DNA of 64,000 bases from Chloroflexota bacterium (GTDB taxonomy: Bacteria > Chloroflexota > Dormibacteria > CF-121): NCBI GenBank assembly GCA_005889225.1, contig VBEW01000016.1:2229-66228 (forward strand). Reading direction: 5' to 3'. The notes beneath the pieces were generated by a model. It saw only the letters and a list, made by a program, of their open reading frames with translations. It was not told where the DNA came from and did no database searches. The translations under genes and the position numbers were made by a program. Shown here one piece after another: positions 40,270 to 47,979 of this stretch; positions within the stretch are counted from its first letter, which is position 1; each line of letters opens with the position of its first letter.

Positions 40270-40683
40270 TTAGTGCGGCTGGTCGTCGCGGCTCATGCCG
40301 TTCGGTGAATAGCCCTTCTGCGCGTGGCGCGCGGTGACGACCGTCTTGATGTTTCCGCGGACGTTGAAGTCACCGACCACTTCTATGAACCGAGGGTTGA
40401 CCAGGGCGACGAGGTCATCCAGGATGCGGTTGACGGCGGTCTCGTGGAACATTTCCTGGTCCCGGAACTTGTTGATGTAAAGCTTGAGTGACTTGAGCTC
40501 GACCAGCTTGTGGTCAGGGATGTAGTGAATCCGGATGGTGGCGAAGTCGGGGAAGTTCGACTGCGGACAGAGACAGGTGAACTCGGGAATCGTGAAGTCG
40601 ATTTCGTAGTCACGTTCCGGGTTGCCGTTCTCCACCGCCTGCAGCGTCGACTCCGCGATCATCTTCGCGCCGTATTTCATCAC
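40270..40683 (-). CDS. queF: NADPH-dependent 7-cyano-7-deazaguanine reductase QueF (type I, preQ0 reductase)
   Basis: EFTCLCPQSNFPDFATI catalytic-Cys motif and ELKSLKLY QueF motif; near full-length similarity to YkvM-type QueF. Confidence 0.85.
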   Translation of the reverse strand: MMKYGAKMIAESTLQAVENGNPERDYEIDFTIPEFTCLCPQSNFPDFATIRIHYIPDHKLVELKSLKLYINKFRDQEMFHETAVNRILDDLVALVNPRFIEVVGDFNVRGNIKTVVTARHAQKGYSPNGMSRDDQPH

Positions 40684-40695
40684 CCTATGCTACCG

Positions 40696-41388
40696 TCAGC
40701 CGGCCAGGCGAAATGGGTTGAAGTCGGTCCCGATGTCGAACGGATCCTGGTGCTCGCGCCGCTTGAGGACCCGCACCACCGCATAGGTCAGCGGGGTGGC
40801 GACGATTTCATAGGCGGTCTTGAACGCCCACTGGTAAAGGATGGTGCGCAGCAGCAGCGGGGCCGGGAGAACGCCGGCAAAGGCGCCAGTGATGAAAATC
40901 GCCGAGTCGATACCCTGCCCGATCAAGGTCGAGCTGATGGTCCGGGTCCACAACCAGCGGCCCTGGGTGGCGATCTTCAGTCGTGCCATCACGAATGAGT
41001 TGAGGAACTCACCAGCCAGATAGGCGACGAATGACGCCACCAGCAGGCGCGGCGTGAAGCCGAGGATGCGCCCAAACGCTGATTGGGCGTTCGCATCCCA
41101 GGCCCCCGGAGCGCCGGGCAGCGCACCGGCCGCCAGGATGAAGAGGACGAACACGAGGTTGCACCCAAAGCCCAACCAGATGACGCGGCGGGTGACGGCG
41201 TAGCCGTAGACCTCGGTCAGGACATCGCCAAATAGGTAGGAGAGGGGGAAGACGATGACCGCGGCCGGAAGGATCATGGGCCCGAAGGCAATCAGCTTGA
41301 CGGCGATCAGGTTTGATGTCAGCAAGACCGTGACGAAGAGCGCGCTGAGGGCGAGCAGCAGCGGTGAGGTCCGTGCGGTCGATCGCAC
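40696..41388 (-). CDS. Queuosine precursor transporter (YhhQ/DUF165 family)
   Basis: VKLIAFGPMILPAAVIVFPLSYLFGDVLTEVYGY block typical of YhhQ; 6 TM; adjacent to queF. Confidence 0.7.
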   Translation of the reverse strand: MRSTARTSPLLLALSALFVTVLLTSNLIAVKLIAFGPMILPAAVIVFPLSYLFGDVLTEVYGYAVTRRVIWLGFGCNLVFVLFILAAGALPGAPGAWDANAQSAFGRILGFTPRLLVASFVAYLAGEFLNSFVMARLKIATQGRWLWTRTISSTLIGQGIDSAIFITGAFAGVLPAPLLLRTILYQWAFKTAYEIVATPLTYAVVRVLKRREHQDPFDIGTDFNPFRLAG

Positions 41389-41418: not shown

Positions 41419-42477
41419 TCAGGGCGTGACGGTGAGCGCCGTGGCCGAACTGACGATCGTGCCGTCCCCGTTTGTCAGCTGGATCACGTAATCCTGGACC
41501 ACCTGCCCGGCTGGCACTTTGACGGTCAGCGTCGACGAACTGACCAGGGTCGGCGCCAGGCCGGTGAAGGCGCCGCTCGGGCTCGCAACTGGTACAAAGC
41601 GAATGCGAAGCGCCCGGCCCTCGATGAAGCCGGTGCCCTGGATGGTCACGACGGTGGCCTGCCCGGTCGAGACGCGCGAGGGGCTGACCGCCTGTACGGT
41701 CGGTCCGGAGCTGGGCGGCGGGCTGGCGGTGCCGTTCGTCCGAAGCACCAGGTATGCCGGAAACGGCGCCAGTGCTGCGGGTGTTCCGGGTTGACCGTGC
41801 CATTGGGCGATGTCGGGCTGTGCCAGGTTGATGGGAAGCGCGGTTCCGCTGGCGGTCAGTATCCCGAGCACTTTGCCGCCGGGTCCGACCACCGGCCCGC
41901 CGACATTACCCGGGAGGTCTTCCGCCTGCAGCCGCAATTGGGTATCCGTCGTGCTGCTGACGAACGCCGAGGTCGCGGCCGGGAGGTTTTCGATCCGCGG
42001 GTTCGACAGCAGGACGACTGGGTCGTTACGAAGCAAGACGGCCGGATTACCCAGCGGCATCGGTCGTCCCTGCGCGGTTACCCGCACCTGGGCGATCCCC
42101 AGGGCGGGGTCGATGCCCACCAGGTTAACCGTATGCATGCTGCCGCTGTTGTCCACCAGCCGGAGACTCTCGCCGCCGCTGACCAGGCGCGCCGCCGTGA
42201 GGAAATCGCCTTGCGGATCGATCAGAAATGCGGTCCCGAAGGTGTGGCTGTTGACGATCGTCACCACGCCCTCGAGGGCTCGATCGAGCTCGTCAGGTAG
42301 CAGCACCGAGGCCGGCGGCGCAGTTGGCGTCGGGGTCGGCGGCGGCGTTGCGCTGGGACGAAACGCCATCAGGCGCTGGGCCGCCGTGGGGATGAGGACG
42401 GCGGCCCCGACCAGGACCAGGCTGATGACGAGGGCGGCGAGCAGTTGCTCCAGCCGGCTCTTGGGCAGGCGGCTCAC
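41419..42477 (-). CDS. Membrane-anchored trypsin-like (HtrA/S1C-fold) pseudo-protease with C-terminal IPT/TIG domain
   Basis: S1C-like blocks GTAFLIDPQGDFLTAARLV (His replaced by Arg) and PGNVGGPVV (Ser replaced by Val); IPT-like C-terminus; track start 42540 also possible, GTG at 42477 preferred. Confidence 0.55.
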   Translation of the reverse strand: MSRLPKSRLEQLLAALVISLVLVGAAVLIPTAAQRLMAFRPSATPPPTPTPTAPPASVLLPDELDRALEGVVTIVNSHTFGTAFLIDPQGDFLTAARLVSGGESLRLVDNSGSMHTVNLVGIDPALGIAQVRVTAQGRPMPLGNPAVLLRNDPVVLLSNPRIENLPAATSAFVSSTTDTQLRLQAEDLPGNVGGPVVGPGGKVLGILTASGTALPINLAQPDIAQWHGQPGTPAALAPFPAYLVLRTNGTASPPPSSGPTVQAVSPSRVSTGQATVVTIQGTGFIEGRALRIRFVPVASPSGAFTGLAPTLVSSSTLTVKVPAGQVVQDYVIQLTNGDGTIVSSATALTVTP

Positions 42478-42541
42478 AGTGTTGAAACGAGGATGGCCGG
42501 GCTTTCTTGGAGTCGCGCCGGTTTCGTATACATTCATCACG

Positions 42542-43741
<1,200 letters not shown>

Positions 43742-43838
43742 TGGGGGAGGGAGATCACGATTTCCGGCGTATGCCTTCTAATACGTAGGCCGTCGGCCGG
43801 CTATTCGCTGCCGTCGTCGCGCCTGCGTGACGCCCCGC

Positions 43839-44267
43839 TTACGCGGTCTCGGTGATGCGGTGAACGCGTGGTAACCGCGGCGGCGGAAAGGGCGGCAGGT
43901 CGGTTGGGCCGCGTCGCTCGAGCAGCTCGCGCAGCGCGGCCGTCTCGACGACCAACCGCTCGACGTCGATCGTCATGCAGGCCGGTCGATAGGGCTCCAG
44001 CTTGGCCAGCCCGTGGCCGAGCTTCGCCACCGCGCCGCGCCAGTTGCCGCGGCGCCAGTGGTAGAAGCCAACGCCCACCTGCAGGATGCCCTGGTAGAGG
44101 TAGCGAACCGCGTCCGGCTCCTTGATCCAGATCCCTTCGAGCGTCTCATGCTGTTCAAAGAACTCCTGACGGTTGAACTCCTCGATGCCGCGCAGCAGCG
44201 CCGCCGGAGGTGGATCAGCACAGCGCCCGGTGCGGCGCGGTGCCGTCTTCTTGAACCGCAGGCTCAC
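43839..44267 (-). CDS. DUF309 domain protein
   Basis: EFNRQEFFEQHETLEGIW...YQGILQVGVGFYH block typical of DUF309; start uncertain. Confidence 0.55.
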   Translation of the reverse strand: MSLRFKKTAPRRTGRCADPPPAALLRGIEEFNRQEFFEQHETLEGIWIKEPDAVRYLYQGILQVGVGFYHWRRGNWRGAVAKLGHGLAKLEPYRPACMTIDVERLVVETAALRELLERRGPTDLPPFPPPRLPRVHRITETA

Positions 44268-45484
44268 GCCGTGGCGCCGGTTGCGGTCGACGCCCGGGCC
44301 GAGTCGCCGTCGGGCGACGCCGCGGGCAGCTCCAGATAGAAGGTTGTGCCTTTGCCTTCCAGGCTGTTGGCCCAGGCCCGTCCACCGTGCGCCTCCGCCA
44401 CCCGGCGAAGCAAATAGAGGCCGAGCCCCTGGCCGCGGGCGGGCTGATCTTCTGCCAACGGGCCGAAGAGGTCTTCGAGCCGATCGGCCGACATGCCCGG
44501 GCCGTCATCCTTGACGATCAGCTGGTAACGGTTGGCGCTCGCCTGCCGCAGCCGAAGCTGGACGACGGTCGCGCTGCGCGCGTGCCTGAAGACGTTATGC
44601 AACATCTCGTCAAGCGCCGCCTCCATCAGGGTGGCGTCGCCCCAAACATCGACCTCGGTATCGAGCTGCAGCCGTAGCTCCATGCCGGCGCGAGCCATCC
44701 GGTCGCGGACCCGCTGCGCCGCTGATTGCGCGATCGCTCCCAGCGAGACGCGGACGGTGAAGGCCAGCTCGAGCGGGAGTCGCGACAGGAGCAGGACCTG
44801 GTCGGCGACGCGCATCAGGGTCTCCGACTGGAGGGCGAGGCGCTCCGCCACTAGCGGCATCTGGTCCGCCGGAACCTCGTCGTTGGCGAGCATATCGGCG
44901 TAGTTACGCAGGATCGCCAGCGGTTCCTTGACCTCTTCCGATGCCAGCCGCACCACGGAGACTGGAGTGCGCGGCTGGCCGTTGGTCGACCGCGATTCCG
45001 AATGCAGGCGGGGCGCCAGCAATCCCGCCACGATCAACAGTAGGTCCTGGTCCATCTCGCTAAAGCTGCGCGGGCCCTTGCCGATGACTCCCAGGGTCCC
45101 GGTCACCTCTCCCCGCGCCGGGAAGGACGTTCCAAGGTAACTCACGATCCCCAATTGCTGCCGCATCGCCAGGCTTTTGAAAGGCTGGCGTTTGCTCGCG
45201 TCGCGAATATTGAGCACCCCGCCCTCCATCTCTTCGTCGACTGCCGCAAACGTATCCTCGAGCGCCATTCGAAGTCCGGGGTCGATGGGGGGCCCGCTCT
45301 GAACGGATGCGGCAATGATCTCGAACGAGTGGCCCTCGATCCTGGCGTAAAAGGCGGCTCGCGCATCGAGCGCCTGGTTAAGACAGGTCAGCGCCTGGTC
45401 GATCAGCTCGGGGAGCGGCCTGGCGAGATTGACGACCACCAGGTGGCGGACCAGGCTGAGGGGTGGCTGGCGGTCGGAGCTCAT
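44264..45484 (-). CDS. GAF domain sensor histidine-kinase-like protein lacking the phosphoacceptor His
   Basis: N-terminal GAF; DHp-like SEEVKEPLAILRNYADML (canonical SHELRTPL with His to Glu); HATPase_c N, G1 (DDGPGM), G2 (GLGL) boxes present. Confidence 0.7.
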   Translation of the reverse strand: MSSDRQPPLSLVRHLVVVNLARPLPELIDQALTCLNQALDARAAFYARIEGHSFEIIAASVQSGPPIDPGLRMALEDTFAAVDEEMEGGVLNIRDASKRQPFKSLAMRQQLGIVSYLGTSFPARGEVTGTLGVIGKGPRSFSEMDQDLLLIVAGLLAPRLHSESRSTNGQPRTPVSVVRLASEEVKEPLAILRNYADMLANDEVPADQMPLVAERLALQSETLMRVADQVLLLSRLPLELAFTVRVSLGAIAQSAAQRVRDRMARAGMELRLQLDTEVDVWGDATLMEAALDEMLHNVFRHARSATVVQLRLRQASANRYQLIVKDDGPGMSADRLEDLFGPLAEDQPARGQGLGLYLLRRVAEAHGGRAWANSLEGKGTTFYLELPAASPDGDSARASTATGATA

Positions 45485-45579
45485 GAGAGGGCGCCCACGG
45501 TTATATCACGCCGGCCCTGATTTCTCTCCGGAGGAAGGCAGGCCGGTGGCTGCCGGATACCACATAAAATGGGCGACCA

Positions 45580-46458
45580 TTGGCTGAGGTATCCAACGGT
45601 CGGGCGAACCTGCACCTGCACACGATATTTAGCGATGGGGAGCTGCCGCCGGCGGAGGTGGTCAAAGCGCACGCCGACGCCGGCTTTACGGTGATTGCCC
45701 TGACAGACCATGACACGCTGGCCGGCATCGATGCCATCGGTGGACTCGATGGGCAGGGCGTTCGGCTGATTGCCGGCGTCGAGTTGTCGATCGAGGACGA
45801 GCCACGCCGCGGCCTGGTTGACGCTCACCTCCTCGGCTACGGATTTGCCCTCAACCACCGCCGCCTCCGGAATCGCCTGCATCAGGCCAGCGAGGCCCGG
45901 GAGGCGCAGAAGCGGGAGACCGTGCGCCGGCTGGCGGCAGCCGGGTTTGACGTCGAGTGGGAAGCCGTGCGGTCCCGCGCTCGAGGCAACGTCGGCAAGC
46001 CCCATATCGTGGCGGCCATCGAGGCGGCGCAGCCAGGGGTGAAACGCGAGGAGCTCTACGCCGTCATGGGACCGGGCGGCGCGGCCTCCGTGGCCCGGGC
46101 GAAAGACCTGTCGCTCGAGGAGGCGGTGGATTTGATCACCGGCGCCGGCGGAGTCAGCGTGCTGGCGCACCCCGGTGTGTACACGCATGTCCCCGATCTC
46201 GAGCTGCTGTTCCGGACCTGTGCGGTCGCCGGTGTCCTGGGGCTGGAGGTCACCTATCCCCAGGCTCCCGACGATCCGTATGGACCGAAAAGCGCCGCGC
46301 TCATGGATCGGTTCGCAAAGACTGCTGCATCGTACGGCTGGGTCGCGAGCGGAGGCGATGATTTCCACGGGCCCACGGTGACACCGCTGATCCGGTTGGC
46401 GGCGTGGACAGCGACCCCGGCCAGTTGCGCCGACGAGCTGCTGGCGCGCCGCAGCTGA
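45580..46458 (+). CDS. PHP domain metal-dependent phosphoesterase (TrpH/YciV-like)
   Basis: ANLHLHTIFSDG and TDHDT PHP motifs; TTG start assumed. Confidence 0.7.
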   Translation: MAEVSNGRANLHLHTIFSDGELPPAEVVKAHADAGFTVIALTDHDTLAGIDAIGGLDGQGVRLIAGVELSIEDEPRRGLVDAHLLGYGFALNHRRLRNRLHQASEAREAQKRETVRRLAAAGFDVEWEAVRSRARGNVGKPHIVAAIEAAQPGVKREELYAVMGPGGAASVARAKDLSLEEAVDLITGAGGVSVLAHPGVYTHVPDLELLFRTCAVAGVLGLEVTYPQAPDDPYGPKSAALMDRFAKTAASYGWVASGGDDFHGPTVTPLIRLAAWTATPASCADELLARRS

Positions 46459-46500: not shown

Positions 46501-47979
46501 TCAGCGGGTCGTCAAGAATCGCGTAATTGCTTCCACCAGGGCATCCGGCCGGTCGAGGGGAAGGAAGTGCCCTCCGGGATCGATGATCTCGACCGTTGTG
46601 TCGCGGAGTTTGTTCTTGAGCGTTTCGGCCCACTGCGGCTCGAGGAATTTGTCATTCGCGCCCCAGATGATCAGCGTGGGCGTTTCGATCTCCTCAATGT
46701 GCTTCGAGCGGCTGATCAGGTCGCGGTTGTTCAGGGATCGCGCGGCGCGCAGGTAAGCGCGCCGCCCGCCCAGATCCTGGAACGGACGGGTCCATTCGTC
46801 GACCAGCTCATCCGTTACGCGGCCCTCGGTCACGATCCCCGCCTCCAGCCCTTTGCGTAAGCCCTTTCGAAGGTCGATGTTGACGATGATCTGATCCCAG
46901 GCCGGCTCCTTCAGCCGCGCGATATCGGGAATGGGCCAGTTGTTGTCGACCACGCTGTCGATCAGGATCAGGCGGGCCACCCGCTGCGGTTCATCCGCCG
47001 CCATCAGCTGGGCGATGCCGCCGCCAATATCGTGACCAACGACCGCCACCTGGTGCACGCCGAGCGATTCCATCAACGCCACCATGTAGCGGGCCTGTGC
47101 CGCGATCGACAGCTCGGCGTCAAGGCGCTTGTCGGAATCGCCATAGCCGAGCAGGTCCGGAGCAAGCACATCGAAGGTTGCGGACAGCGGATCGATCACG
47201 TCGCGCCAGAGATACGAGGAGCTGGGAATGCCGTGCAGCAGGAGCAGGGCTGGTCCCTGACCCTGTCGCAGGTACGCGACGTCACCGCCGAAGGTGCGAA
47301 TTCTCTGCTTGGTGCGAGCAAGTGGGGCAGCATTGATGAGCTCGGTGATCATCGGCGGCGACACCGTCGGTGTCGGCGTTCGTTCGAGCGGCGATGGCGG
47401 TGCGCTGAAGCGCGGGGCCGGCTCGGGTGCCGCCACGGGCGCGAAGGGAACGCCACTCGGGATGGGTGGCGTCACCGTGGGCGGCCCGGCCGCCGCGATG
47501 CTGGGTTGCGGTGCCGGCGGCTGGACCGATCGGCGCTGCAGGATGACGTTGGTGGAGCTGGCCCGCGCGATCAGTTGATTCTGCTGGTCGAGCACCTCCG
47601 CTTCGGCGACCGCGAGTTGCTGGCCGCGGTGCACCACTCGGCCGATCGATCGCAGCATGCCGGAATCGGCGCTCACCGGCTTGAGGAAATTCAGATGGAG
47701 TTCAGCCGTGGTGAAATTCTCGCCGGGCGCGAGCGTGCTGAAGACCGCAAATCCCATCGCGCTGTCTGCGAGGGAGGCGAGCGCGCCGCCGTGAACCACA
47801 TTGTTCGGGTTGTAGAGATCGACGCTCGCCGGCATTTCGAAGGTCGCGCTGCCGTCGGACACCGCGATGAAACGCATATTGAGGAGGCGGACGTAGGGCG
47901 GTGGTGGGGCGGCGCCACGCAGCGCGGCCTCGAGCAAGTCACGACCCGACATCTCCGCCGGTTCGGACATCGCCCGCAT
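46501..47979 (-). CDS. Fusion protein: PaaI/hotdog-fold thioesterase domain, Pro-rich linker, alpha/beta-hydrolase domain
   Basis: N-terminal hotdog block (VVHGGALASLADSAMGF), ~70-aa Pro/Ala linker, C-terminal LLLHGIPSSSYLWRD...VVGHDIGGG alpha/beta hydrolase. Confidence 0.75.
   Translation of the reverse strand: MRAMSEPAEMSGRDLLEAALRGAAPPPPYVRLLNMRFIAVSDGSATFEMPASVDLYNPNNVVHGGALASLADSAMGFAVFSTLAPGENFTTAELHLNFLKPVSADSGMLRSIGRVVHRGQQLAVAEAEVLDQQNQLIARASSTNVILQRRSVQPPAPQPSIAAAGPPTVTPPIPSGVPFAPVAAPEPAPRFSAPPSPLERTPTPTVSPPMITELINAAPLARTKQRIRTFGGDVAYLRQGQGPALLLLHGIPSSSYLWRDVIDPLSATFDVLAPDLLGYGDSDKRLDAELSIAAQARYMVALMESLGVHQVAVVGHDIGGGIAQLMAADEPQRVARLILIDSVVDNNWPIPDIARLKEPAWDQIIVNIDLRKGLRKGLEAGIVTEGRVTDELVDEWTRPFQDLGGRRAYLRAARSLNNRDLISRSKHIEEIETPTLIIWGANDKFLEPQWAETLKNKLRDTTVEIIDPGGHFLPLDRPDALVEAITRFLTTR

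What the first reader, a model, noticed from the sequence alone, without database searches (positions are those of the whole stretch)
44264..45484. GAF-domain histidine-kinase-like protein whose phosphoacceptor His is replaced by Glu, operonic with DUF309
The DHp H-box reads SEEVKEPLAILRNYADML, aligned to canonical SHELRTPLxxIxGYxELL, so His is replaced by Glu. The ATP-binding N/G1/G2 boxes are intact. No response regulator is adjacent. The 3' neighbour is a DUF309 protein overlapping by 4 nt. The protein may be a pseudo-kinase, a phosphomimetic or constitutive scaffold, or may use another residue.
Basis: partly seen in the sequence, partly recalled or inferred. Interest (0 to 1): 0.5.

Follow-up and report, generated by a model that had tools for sequence, protein, structure and literature searches.

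The report
Histidine kinase look-alike lacking its histidine
This soil-bacterium gene encodes a sensor kinase look-alike whose phosphate-accepting histidine is replaced by glutamate and changes freely between related species while the rest of the protein stays tightly conserved, so it is a working "pseudokinase" of a kind already known from a few other bacteria.

Summary
ORF 44264-45484(-) encodes a 406-aa soluble GAF-DHp-CA protein. Glu183 sits where HK853, ZraS and WalK have the phospho-His. There is no His anywhere in the DHp helices. The ATP-binding residues (N297, D326xGxG330, G351xGxG355) are intact. A DUF309 gene follows with a GTGA stop/start overlap. No receiver domain was found in the 64 kb.

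This is not a sequencing error or a decaying gene. The protein belongs to an orthogroup found only in Dormibacterota, which sits in a conserved gene neighbourhood. Across 138 sequences, position 183 reads Q 77, E 34, H 20, A 3, D 2, L 1, R 1. Its flanks (RLAS_EVKEPLAILRGYADML) and the ATP pocket are almost invariant. Among 22 species representatives the site changed at least 12 times, the most of any DHp-CA position, at roughly the neutral rate (site omega about 0.8). The DHp and CA domains evolve at dN/dS 0.04-0.13 whether or not His is present.

Glu is therefore not a conserved phosphomimetic. The conserved function does not need the canonical acceptor. The best reading is a histidine pseudokinase like DivL or PsmA, but unlike PsmA it keeps its ATP pocket under selection. 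The TPR-like DUF309 protein is a plausible partner, but this is unproven. It is a new member of a known kind and of moderate interest.

The parts
44264..45484 (-). Gene for a 406-aa cytoplasmic GAF-DHp-CA histidine-kinase-like protein (histidine pseudokinase)
   Evidence: ORF; Pfam domains; alignments to PDB kinases. The AF2 model has pLDDT 80, and its best Foldseek matches are HK853, DivL and WalK DHp-CA cores.
45014..45421 (-). GAF sensor domain (residues 22-157)
   Evidence: Pfam GAF 30 bits and GAF_2 24.6 bits. The AF2 secondary structure is an alpha/beta fold over residues 8-163. This is the fastest-evolving domain, with dN/dS 0.12-0.29.
44963..45004 (-). Hypervariable linker between GAF and DHp (residues 161-174), predicted to be disordered
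   Evidence: It holds the highest column entropies in the protein, at positions 162-167. pLDDT is below 50 for residues 162-174.
44768..44962 (-). DHp helical hairpin (residues 175-239) with an H-box that lacks His
   Evidence: AF2 helices span 175-200 and 206-239. HisKA profile match at 181-236. The H-box flanks are nearly invariant in 138 sequences.
44936..44938 (-). Codon 183 (GAA, Glu) at the canonical phospho-His position
   Evidence: Alignment to the SHE motif of HK853, ZraS and WalK; translation check. The family carries Q/E/H/A/D/L/R here. There are at least 12 changes among 22 species and at least 23 among 138 sequences.
44318..44755 (-). CA (HATPase_c) ATP-binding domain (residues 244-389). 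N297 lies at 44594-44596, G1 (DDGPG) at 44495-44509 and G2 (GQGLG) at 44420-44434.
   Evidence: Pfam HATPase_c 78 bits; motif translations. The motif residues show zero changes on the family tree. dN/dS is 0.04-0.09.
43839..44267 (-). Downstream DUF309 gene (142 aa), encoding a TPR-like helical protein with invariant C16, H40, E41, E44, H70, C97 and D101
44264..44267 (-). GTGA overlap: the DUF309 GTG start overlaps the kinase-like gene's TGA stop, suggesting translational coupling
   Evidence: Sequence read. The same GTGA overlap occurs in L087 and L088.
45485..45579 (.). 95-bp divergent intergenic region between the kinase-like gene and the PHP-domain gene 45580..46458(+). It presumably holds both promoters.
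   Evidence: ORF coordinates; PHP domain. The arrangement is conserved in all orthologous loci. No sigma-70 consensus was found.

Best explanation
The gene encodes a histidine pseudokinase. It is a soluble GAF-DHp-CA protein descended from a genuine HisKA kinase with a phytochrome-like H-box (SHDxKEPL). In the window's lineage it has Glu at the phosphoacceptor position.

Shown: it cannot autophosphorylate on the canonical His, because that residue is absent and the DHp has no other His. It is still a functional protein under strong purifying selection. Its ATP-binding residues and the rest of the H-box surface are conserved. The identity of residue 183 is nearly irrelevant to fitness across the orthogroup.

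Inferred: the protein works as an ATP-binding, GAF-regulated protein-interaction switch rather than as a phosphodonor. In this model the conserved DHp H-box face and the CA domain bind a partner, as DivL and PsmA do. The most likely partner is the translationally coupled, TPR-like DUF309 protein encoded immediately downstream, or an unlinked receiver protein. Orthologues that still carry His may retain residual or ancestral kinase activity.
For: - E183 aligns to the phospho-His of HK853, ZraS and WalK. The DHp has no His.
- The orthogroup is confined to Dormibacterota. HMMER scores then drop steeply to generic HKs at about 30% identity.
- Site 183 reads Q 77, E 34, H 20, A 3, D 2, L 1, R 1, with near-invariant flanks.
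- There are at least 23 changes at the site on the 138-sequence tree, against a median of 2.
- Among 22 species there are 12 changes. That is rank 1 of 221 DHp-CA positions and compares with a mean of 6.3 at four-fold degenerate sites. Site omega is about 0.8.
- N297, D326, G328, G330, G351, G353, G355 and H366 never change.
- dN/dS for DHp is 0.05-0.13 and for CA 0.06-0.08 in E/E, Q/Q and A/A pairs. His/His pairs give 0.04-0.08.
- Variants carrying H, Q, L or E sit in the same syntenic locus, so they are true orthologues.
- DUF309 is directly downstream on the same strand in all 27 orthologous loci that extend that far; only L007 ends inside the gene. A GTGA overlap occurs in several lineages. 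DUF309 is retained where the downstream synteny differs.
- The DUF309 fold is a TPR/6H-like helical repeat, typical of adaptor proteins.
- Published precedent: PsmA of Streptomyces has Glu at this position, the residue varies (D/Q/V/Y) among orthologues while the flanks are conserved, no autokinase activity was detected, and restoring His has no effect (PMC12963549). DivL's kinase core has been repurposed as a binding sensor (PMC4211667).
Against: - No biochemical data exist for any family member.
- Invariant ATP-binding and Mg-binding residues, and a conserved acidic residue at H+1 (E/D184), are what a catalytically active kinase would keep. PsmA, by contrast, has lost its ATP-binding residues. 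Some phosphotransfer or ATPase chemistry may therefore persist.
- His is retained on all five long basal branches. In those lineages, at least, the protein may be an ordinary orphan kinase.
- The link to DUF309 rests only on gene order, in a neighbourhood that is syntenic as a whole. A mirror-tree test gave no specific co-evolution signal: partial r was 0.27, lower than for unrelated neighbours.
- The site is not fully unconstrained. Q, E and H make up 95% of states.
Confidence: 0.6

Rival explanations
1. The protein is still part of a two-component pathway with an unlinked orphan response regulator. Orthologues with His act as kinase/phosphatase. His-less orthologues such as the window's act as phosphatase-only or as regulator-sequestering proteins. 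Toggling of the acceptor residue would then be an evolutionary on/off switch for kinase output.
For: - The H-box flanks and DHp helix 1, the surface that docks receiver domains in HK853-RR468 complexes, are nearly invariant.
- The best structural matches are HK853-RR468 complexes.
- His persists in about 14% of members and on all basal branches.
- From established knowledge of EnvZ and NtrB: substitutions of the acceptor His can leave phosphatase activity intact.
Against: - No receiver domain was found in 64 kb or in the syntenic flanks of other members.
- H+4 is Glu, not the Thr/Asn of the HisKA phosphatase motif E/DxxT/N.
- The site's near-neutral rate (omega about 0.8) fits irrelevance better than a selected switch.
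- Two divergent members have also lost the acidic H+1 residue (P0121, P0122).
Confidence: 0.2
2. The CA domain is catalytically active but uses a different acceptor. The protein would be a GHKL-type Ser/Thr (or Tyr) protein kinase or an ATPase, like SpoIIAB/RsbW, mitochondrial PDK/BCKDK, plant phytochromes or subfamily-2 ethylene receptors. It would phosphorylate itself (for example at S/T182 or Y195) or the DUF309 protein.
For: - All ATP/Mg-binding residues are invariant, and CA dN/dS is 0.04-0.09 despite loss of His.
- E/D184, the catalytic acid, is conserved.
- HATPase_c_2 (anti-sigma Ser kinase type) scores 32.9 bits, above its 27.4 cut-off.
- Position 182 is always Ser or Thr.
- The DUF309 gene is translationally coupled and has invariant His, Cys and Tyr residues.
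Against: - HATPase_c (78 bits) fits much better than HATPase_c_2, and weak HATPase_c_2 hits are common among ordinary HKs.
- S182, Y195 and H366 are generic HisKA/HATPase features that are also present in real kinases.
- There is no STAS or sigma-factor partner nearby.
- The DUF309 fold is TPR/6H-like, not an Hpt four-helix bundle.
Confidence: 0.15
3. Artefact or decay: the Glu is a sequencing or assembly error, a misalignment, or a sign that the gene is becoming a pseudogene.
For: - The HisKA Pfam score is below its threshold (20.6 against 26.9 bits).
- One MAG (L025) has an apparently frameshifted copy.
- The protein evolves faster overall than its neighbours PHP, CHAP and DUF309.
Against: - Glu is present in 14 relatives at 87-96% identity drawn from several sources. 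The Glu codon (GAA in the window, GAG in L024) is two mutations away from a His codon.
- Four independent PDB kinases give the same alignment.
- The intact 406-409-aa ORF is kept across the phylum.
- dN/dS is 0.10-0.18 overall and 0.04-0.13 in DHp and CA.
Confidence: 0.02

Closest known systems
PsmA of Streptomyces (histidine pseudokinase; Mavi and Flardh 2026, PMC12963549)
   Same: Both have an HK-like DHp-CA core with Glu at the phospho-His position in the reference species. In both, that residue varies among orthologues (D, Q, V, Y in PsmA; Q, H, A, D, L, R here) while the residues that follow are highly conserved. Both are lineage-restricted orthogroups in a conserved genomic context.
   Different: PsmA is a large hybrid protein of more than 1270 aa with a REC domain, and it binds DivIVA at hyphal tips. 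It lacks key ATP-binding residues and the E/DxxT/N motif (its H-box reads XSLRGP). The window protein is a 406-aa GAF-DHp-CA protein with no REC domain. Its ATP-binding motifs are invariant, His is retained in about 14% of members, and it is coupled to DUF309. The two are not orthologous.
DivL of Caulobacter crescentus (PDB 4Q20)
   Same: Both are HK-fold proteins without the acceptor His whose DHp-CA core is used for protein binding rather than phosphotransfer (PMC4211667). DivL is among the best structural matches, with TM-score 0.82 on the target.
   Different: DivL has a conserved Tyr at the site, multiple PAS domains and a membrane anchor. It works with DivK~P and CckA in Alphaproteobacteria. 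Here the site is not conserved at all, the sensor is a single GAF domain, and no receiver partner is known. Sequence identity is about 23%.
Canonical HisKA sensor kinases: NtrB/ZraS/AtoS-like in sequence score, phytochrome-type 'SHDLxEPL' in H-box
   Same: The DHp-CA architecture and all ATP-binding boxes match. The best PDB sequence hit is ZraS (E = 2.6e-15). The best NCBIfam hits are CreC, AtoS, PhoR and ZraS, all far below their cut-offs. The basal family members read SHDVKEPL, like genuine kinases with Glu at H+4 (L045, L054, L064, L071).
   Different: The defining phosphoacceptor His is absent in the window protein and in about 86% of the family. There is no cognate regulator nearby. The GAF-DHp linker is disordered and hypervariable, unlike the continuous signalling helix typical of such kinases.
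DUF309 / TTHA0068-like proteins (PF03745; PDB 2IJQ, 2CWY)
   Different: No function is known for the family. The Dormibacterota proteins add an N-terminal segment with an invariant Cys and a Pro-rich C-terminal tail. Pairing with a kinase-like gene has not been described, to my knowledge.

Membership tests
HisKA-type sensor histidine kinase (EC 2.7.13.3) | Phosphoacceptor His in the H-box of DHp helix 1 | tested here: not met
   E183 aligns to the His of HK853, ZraS and WalK. There is no His in residues 172-245. By contrast, 119 of 120 generic relatives have His.
HisKA-type sensor histidine kinase (EC 2.7.13.3) | DHp (HisKA) helical hairpin | tested here: met
   The AF2 model has helices at 175-200 and 206-239. 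The fold matches HK853, DivL and WalK cores. The Pfam HisKA score, 20.6 bits, is below the 26.9 cut-off.
HisKA-type sensor histidine kinase (EC 2.7.13.3) | HATPase_c domain with N, G1 and G2 boxes | tested here: met
   78 bits to PF02518. N297, D326xGxG330 and G351xGxG355 are present and invariant.
HisKA-type sensor histidine kinase (EC 2.7.13.3) | Cognate response regulator (usually adjacent) | tested here: not met
   No receiver domain was found in the window or in the flanks of orthologues. Orphan kinases exist, so this is not decisive.
HisKA-type sensor histidine kinase (EC 2.7.13.3) | ATP-dependent autophosphorylation and phosphotransfer | not testable with these tools
   This needs a biochemical assay.
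HisKA-type sensor histidine kinase (EC 2.7.13.3) | HisKA phosphatase motif E/D-x-x-T/N after the His | tested here: not met
   The motif reads E184-V-K-E187. Glu187 changes only once on the 138-sequence family tree. Glu at H+4 also occurs in genuine phytochrome-type kinases.
Bacterial histidine pseudokinases (functional class: DivL, PsmA) | HK fold that lacks the phosphorylatable His | tested here: met
Bacterial histidine pseudokinases (functional class: DivL, PsmA) | Function retained independently of the acceptor residue | tested here: met
   The evidence is indirect and evolutionary. dN/dS is 0.04-0.13 in DHp and CA of His-less pairs, equal to His-bearing pairs. The site itself is near-neutral. 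There is no genetic test.
Bacterial histidine pseudokinases (functional class: DivL, PsmA) | Orthology to DivL or PsmA | tested here: not met
   The family is confined to Dormibacterota. The nearest other proteins are generic HKs at about 30% identity. The architecture lacks PAS arrays and a REC domain.
GHKL Ser/Thr protein kinases of the anti-sigma type (HATPase_c_2: SpoIIAB/RsbW) | Best match to HATPase_c_2, no DHp, and an adjacent STAS antagonist or sigma factor | tested here: not met
   HATPase_c_2 scores 32.9 bits against 78 bits for HATPase_c. A DHp is present. No STAS or sigma gene lies in the neighbourhood.
DUF309 (PF03745), downstream gene | Profile match and TTHA0068/2IJQ-like helical fold | tested here: met
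   [not shown]

The most novel reading that the evidence does not exclude
The conserved ATP-binding CA domain of this His-less protein still catalyses phosphoryl transfer, but to an external acceptor. The co-translated DUF309 protein, which has invariant His, Cys and Tyr residues, would be its substrate or obligate partner. Together they would form a previously undescribed two-protein signalling module that replaces the DHp His and the response regulator. The repeated H/Q/E toggling would record lineages switching the old phosphorelay output on and off.
Probability: 0.1. Interest if true: 0.75.

Novelty: new member of a known kind. Interest (0 to 1): 0.42.

Why it matters
Public annotation calls these proteins 'sensor histidine kinase', but most of them cannot be one. 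This orthogroup is a natural experiment. Across one phylum the phosphoacceptor drifts at about the neutral rate, while the ATP pocket and the docking face of the H-box stay frozen. That raises a sharper question than DivL or PsmA do: what is ATP binding for in a kinase core with no acceptor? It also nominates a candidate partner, which would be a first functional lead for DUF309, a family solved by structural genomics in 2005-2006 but still of unknown function. Finally, it gives a rare view of signalling in the uncultured soil phylum Dormibacterota.

Tried and rejected
1. Re-alignment to find another His: rejected. Residues 172-245 contain no His. The invariant H301 and H366 are ordinary N-box and 'AHGG' positions in the CA domain.

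2. Sequencing error: rejected.

3. Pseudogene decay: rejected by dN/dS.

4. Conserved phosphomimetic Glu: rejected. Gln is the commonest residue, and Ala, Leu and Arg also occur.

5. Treating Glu at H+4 as evidence of a lost phosphatase motif unique to this family: toned down. Genuine kinases with SHDLKEPL share it.

7. Mirror-tree co-evolution between the kinase-like protein and DUF309: uninformative. Partial r was 0.27, lower than for unrelated neighbours.

8. Anti-phage defence role: prompted by the resemblance to the Csm6 6H domain, but there are no PADLOC hits.

9. Literature on DUF309: only prefix false positives (DUF3090 and similar) in the two papers opened; the other eight hits were not read.

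10. Promoter scan: no sigma-70 consensus in 43600-45700. This is uninformative for this phylum.

11. Linkage of DUF309 to kinase-like genes outside Dormibacterota: could not be tested.

12. My script's count of H+4 residues in generic kinases was unreliable because of gap handling, so I do not use it.
Full report
**1. What is in the sequence**

The ORF at 44264..45484 on the minus strand encodes 406 aa. Pfam finds three domains:
- a GAF domain at residues 24-157 (30 bits);
- a sub-threshold HisKA match at 181-236 (20.6 bits against a cut-off of 26.9);
- a strong HATPase_c domain at 282-389 (78 bits).

NCBIfam matches only kinase families such as CreC, AtoS, PhoR and ZraS, all far below their cut-offs.

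phmmer against PDB sequences aligns query 182-SEEVKEPL-189 with SHELRTPL of HK853 and WalK and with AHEIRNPL of ZraS. Glu183 (GAA, 44936-44938) therefore sits at the phosphoacceptor position. The DHp segment 172-245 contains no His at all (sequence), so no re-alignment can rescue an acceptor His.

The ATP-binding motifs are present: N297 in MLHNVFRHA, G1 as D326-D-G-P-G330, F340, and G2 as G351-Q-G-L-G355.

An AlphaFold2 model (pLDDT 80) shows a GAF fold, then a low-confidence linker (162-174), then a helical hairpin (175-200 and 206-239) and an alpha/beta CA domain. Foldseek places the model next to the HK853-RR468 complexes, DivL (4Q20, TM-score 0.82 on the target) and WalK.

The downstream ORF 43839..44267(-) is a DUF309 protein (80 bits). 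Its GTG start overlaps the TGA stop of the kinase-like gene as GTGA.

No receiver domain is encoded next to the gene or anywhere in the 64 kb. The same search recovered only this gene as a kinase core.

**2. It is not an error and not decay**

The protein has about 900 detectable homologues. The best 120 are 74-96% identical and come from soil metagenomes and from MAGs named Candidatus Dormibacteraeota or 'Chloroflexi bacterium CF_nn'.

In one-genome-per-species data, the orthologue occurs in 22 MAGs at 54-91% identity. Hits then drop abruptly to generic kinases at 22-40%.

An exhaustive HMMER search of 1.84 billion representatives gives the same picture. A handful of 50%-identity clusters belong to the family, most of them fragments. 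After them the score falls from 397 to about 160 bits.

The gene neighbourhood is conserved throughout: amidase, CHAP peptidase, thioesterase-hydrolase fusion, a divergently transcribed PHP gene, the kinase-like gene, DUF309, CysRS, Trypsin_2/TIG and QueF. These are therefore true orthologues.

Fourteen relatives at 87-96% identity, drawn from JGI and ENA metagenome assemblies and NCBI MAGs, carry Glu. The codon was read in two of this clade: GAA in the window and GAG in L024. Either is two mutations from a His codon.

**3. The key result: the acceptor position is the most labile residue of the kinase core**

- In 138 non-identical family sequences, position 183 reads Q 77, E 34, H 20, A 3, D 2, L 1 and R 1. 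The flanks, RLAS_EVKEPLAILRGYADML, are almost invariant.
- More divergent members at 51-63% identity show Q, E, H and A. L023 has R.
- The codons form a network connected by single-nucleotide steps: CAG/CAA, GAG/GAA, CAC/CAT, GCG, CTG and CGC.
- On a neighbour-joining tree built without that column, Fitch parsimony needs at least 23 changes at the site. The median for DHp-CA positions is 2.
- Among 22 species representatives the site changes 12 times. That is rank 1 of 221 DHp-CA positions and rank 2 of 397 overall. The 73 four-fold degenerate sites average 6.3 changes.
- Counting nucleotide changes gives about 14 non-synonymous changes over about 2.7 non-synonymous sites. The site omega is therefore roughly 0.8, which is near neutral.
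- As a control, 119 of 120 generic kinase relatives have His at the aligned position.

By contrast, N297, D326, G328, G330, G351, G353, G355 and H366 never change.

Nei-Gojobori dN/dS is 0.05-0.13 for DHp and 0.06-0.08 for CA in pairs where both members lack His. These pairs are E/E window-L024 and L010-L028, Q/Q L001-L026 and L011-L027, and A/A L018-L019. His/His pairs give an indistinguishable 0.04-0.08. Selection therefore maintains the DHp and the ATP pocket regardless of the acceptor.

The five long basal in-group branches (L020, L012, L014, L015, L017) all keep His, often as SHDVKEPL. The crown clade that contains the window toggles among E, Q, H and L. This suggests an ancestral real kinase, followed by relaxation of the acceptor site.

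Glu at H+4 looked anomalous at first. It also occurs in genuine kinases with an SHDLKEPL H-box among the generic hits (L045, L054, L064, L071). From my own knowledge, it also occurs in phytochrome-type kinases.

**4. The DUF309 neighbour**

A DUF309 gene lies directly downstream on the same strand in all 27 orthologous loci that reach that far; L007 ends inside the kinase-like gene. The gap runs from -4 to about +85 nt. The GTGA overlap recurs in L087 and L088.

In L087 the downstream genes differ, but the PHP / kinase-like / DUF309 core remains.

Within the clade, DUF309 is better conserved than the kinase-like protein (68-88% against 54-78%). Its invariant residues include C16, H40, E41, E44, H70, C97 and D101.

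The fold suggests an adaptor rather than a phosphoacceptor.

A mirror-tree test gave no specific co-evolution signal. PADLOC finds nothing. The two of ten DUF309 literature hits I opened were prefix false positives (DUF3090, DUF3096), so I found no function for the family. The functional link therefore rests on operon structure alone.

**5. Mechanism**

Shown: the window protein cannot use the canonical His. The family's conserved function does not depend on the residue at that position. The ATP-binding pocket, the acidic H+1 residue and the H-box surface are under strong constraint.

Inferred: the protein is a histidine pseudokinase. It would convert a GAF-sensed signal, and probably ATP occupancy, into a protein-protein interaction. 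The co-translated TPR-like DUF309 protein is the most plausible partner.

Rivals:
- a phosphatase-only or sequestering role toward an unlinked orphan receiver, with His-bearing lineages still acting as kinases;
- a Ser/Thr kinase or ATPase activity directed at another acceptor, possibly DUF309;
- artefact or decay, which is refuted.

The invariant catalytic residues are the main reason not to settle on a purely scaffolding role.

**6. Comparison with what is known**

His-less kinase-like proteins are an established kind.

DivL has Tyr at the site, and its kinase core has been repurposed to sense DivK~P (PMC4211667).

PsmA of Streptomyces is the closest analogue in pattern (PMC12963549). It has Glu at the position in S. 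venezuelae and D, Q, V or Y in other species. The following residues are conserved. No autokinase activity was detected, and restoring His had no phenotypic effect.

The present family is not orthologous to either. It differs in five ways:
- it is a small soluble GAF-DHp-CA protein without a REC domain or PAS arrays;
- its ATP-binding motifs are invariant, whereas PsmA has lost key ones;
- it retains His in a minority of lineages;
- it is coupled to DUF309;
- it is confined to Dormibacterota.

I therefore file it as a new member of the known class of histidine pseudokinases. It is not a member of the catalytically defined histidine kinases, because the defining acceptor was tested and is not met.

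**7. Verdict**

Interest is moderate at 0.42. The evolutionary pattern is clean and raises a testable question about what ATP binding does in an acceptor-less kinase core. It also gives a first lead for DUF309. However, the phenomenon has published precedents, and the mechanism here is inferred only from sequence.

Noticed in passing
L025:2460-3561 (VBFX01000277.1): The orthologous kinase-like gene in this MAG aligns in separate pieces. Residues 1-198 match, and the H-box tail then reads ...GILRGYAALTPS. This suggests a frameshift, either a real pseudogene or an assembly error. The DUF309 gene downstream is intact.
   Followed up: partly
P0126 (377 aa, metagenome protein): This predicted protein starts as the kinase-like DHp, runs through about 150 residues of Arg/Gly/Pro-rich out-of-frame sequence, and ends as the DUF309 protein. 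It looks like a frameshift-generated fusion call across the two adjacent genes.
   Followed up: no
[not shown]
   Followed up: partly
window 44963-45004 (-), residues 161-174: The GAF-to-DHp linker is the most variable stretch of the protein and is predicted to be disordered. Canonical GAF/PAS kinases transmit signals through a continuous helix into DHp helix 1.
   Followed up: no
window 40270-41388 (-): A QueF gene (40270-40683) sits next to a Vut_1/YhhQ-type transporter gene (40696-41388). Their orthologues in L005 carry the PF14489 and PF02592 domains. This is a queuosine-precursor salvage and synthesis pair. The transporter is absent from this position in about half of the related genomes.
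   Followed up: no
window 46501-47979 (-): A 492-aa fusion joins a 4HBT thioesterase domain (59-137) to an alpha/beta hydrolase domain (243-484) through a Pro/Ala-rich linker. It is conserved in all syntenic loci.
   Followed up: no
L010 (DATNMH010000068.1) and L027 (DATNNA010000086.1): These contigs are titled 'Candidatus Acidoferrum sp.' and 'Candidatus Binatus sp.'. Yet they carry the Dormibacterota-type locus at about 75% identity with full synteny. The MAG labels or bins are probably wrong.
   Followed up: no
window 41810-43741 (+): The mechanical ORF list gives a 643-aa ORF here. Only its C-terminal part, about 380-400 aa, corresponds to cysteinyl-tRNA synthetase in the orthologous loci. 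The real start is probably near 42545. The gene is convergent with the DUF309 gene.
   Followed up: no
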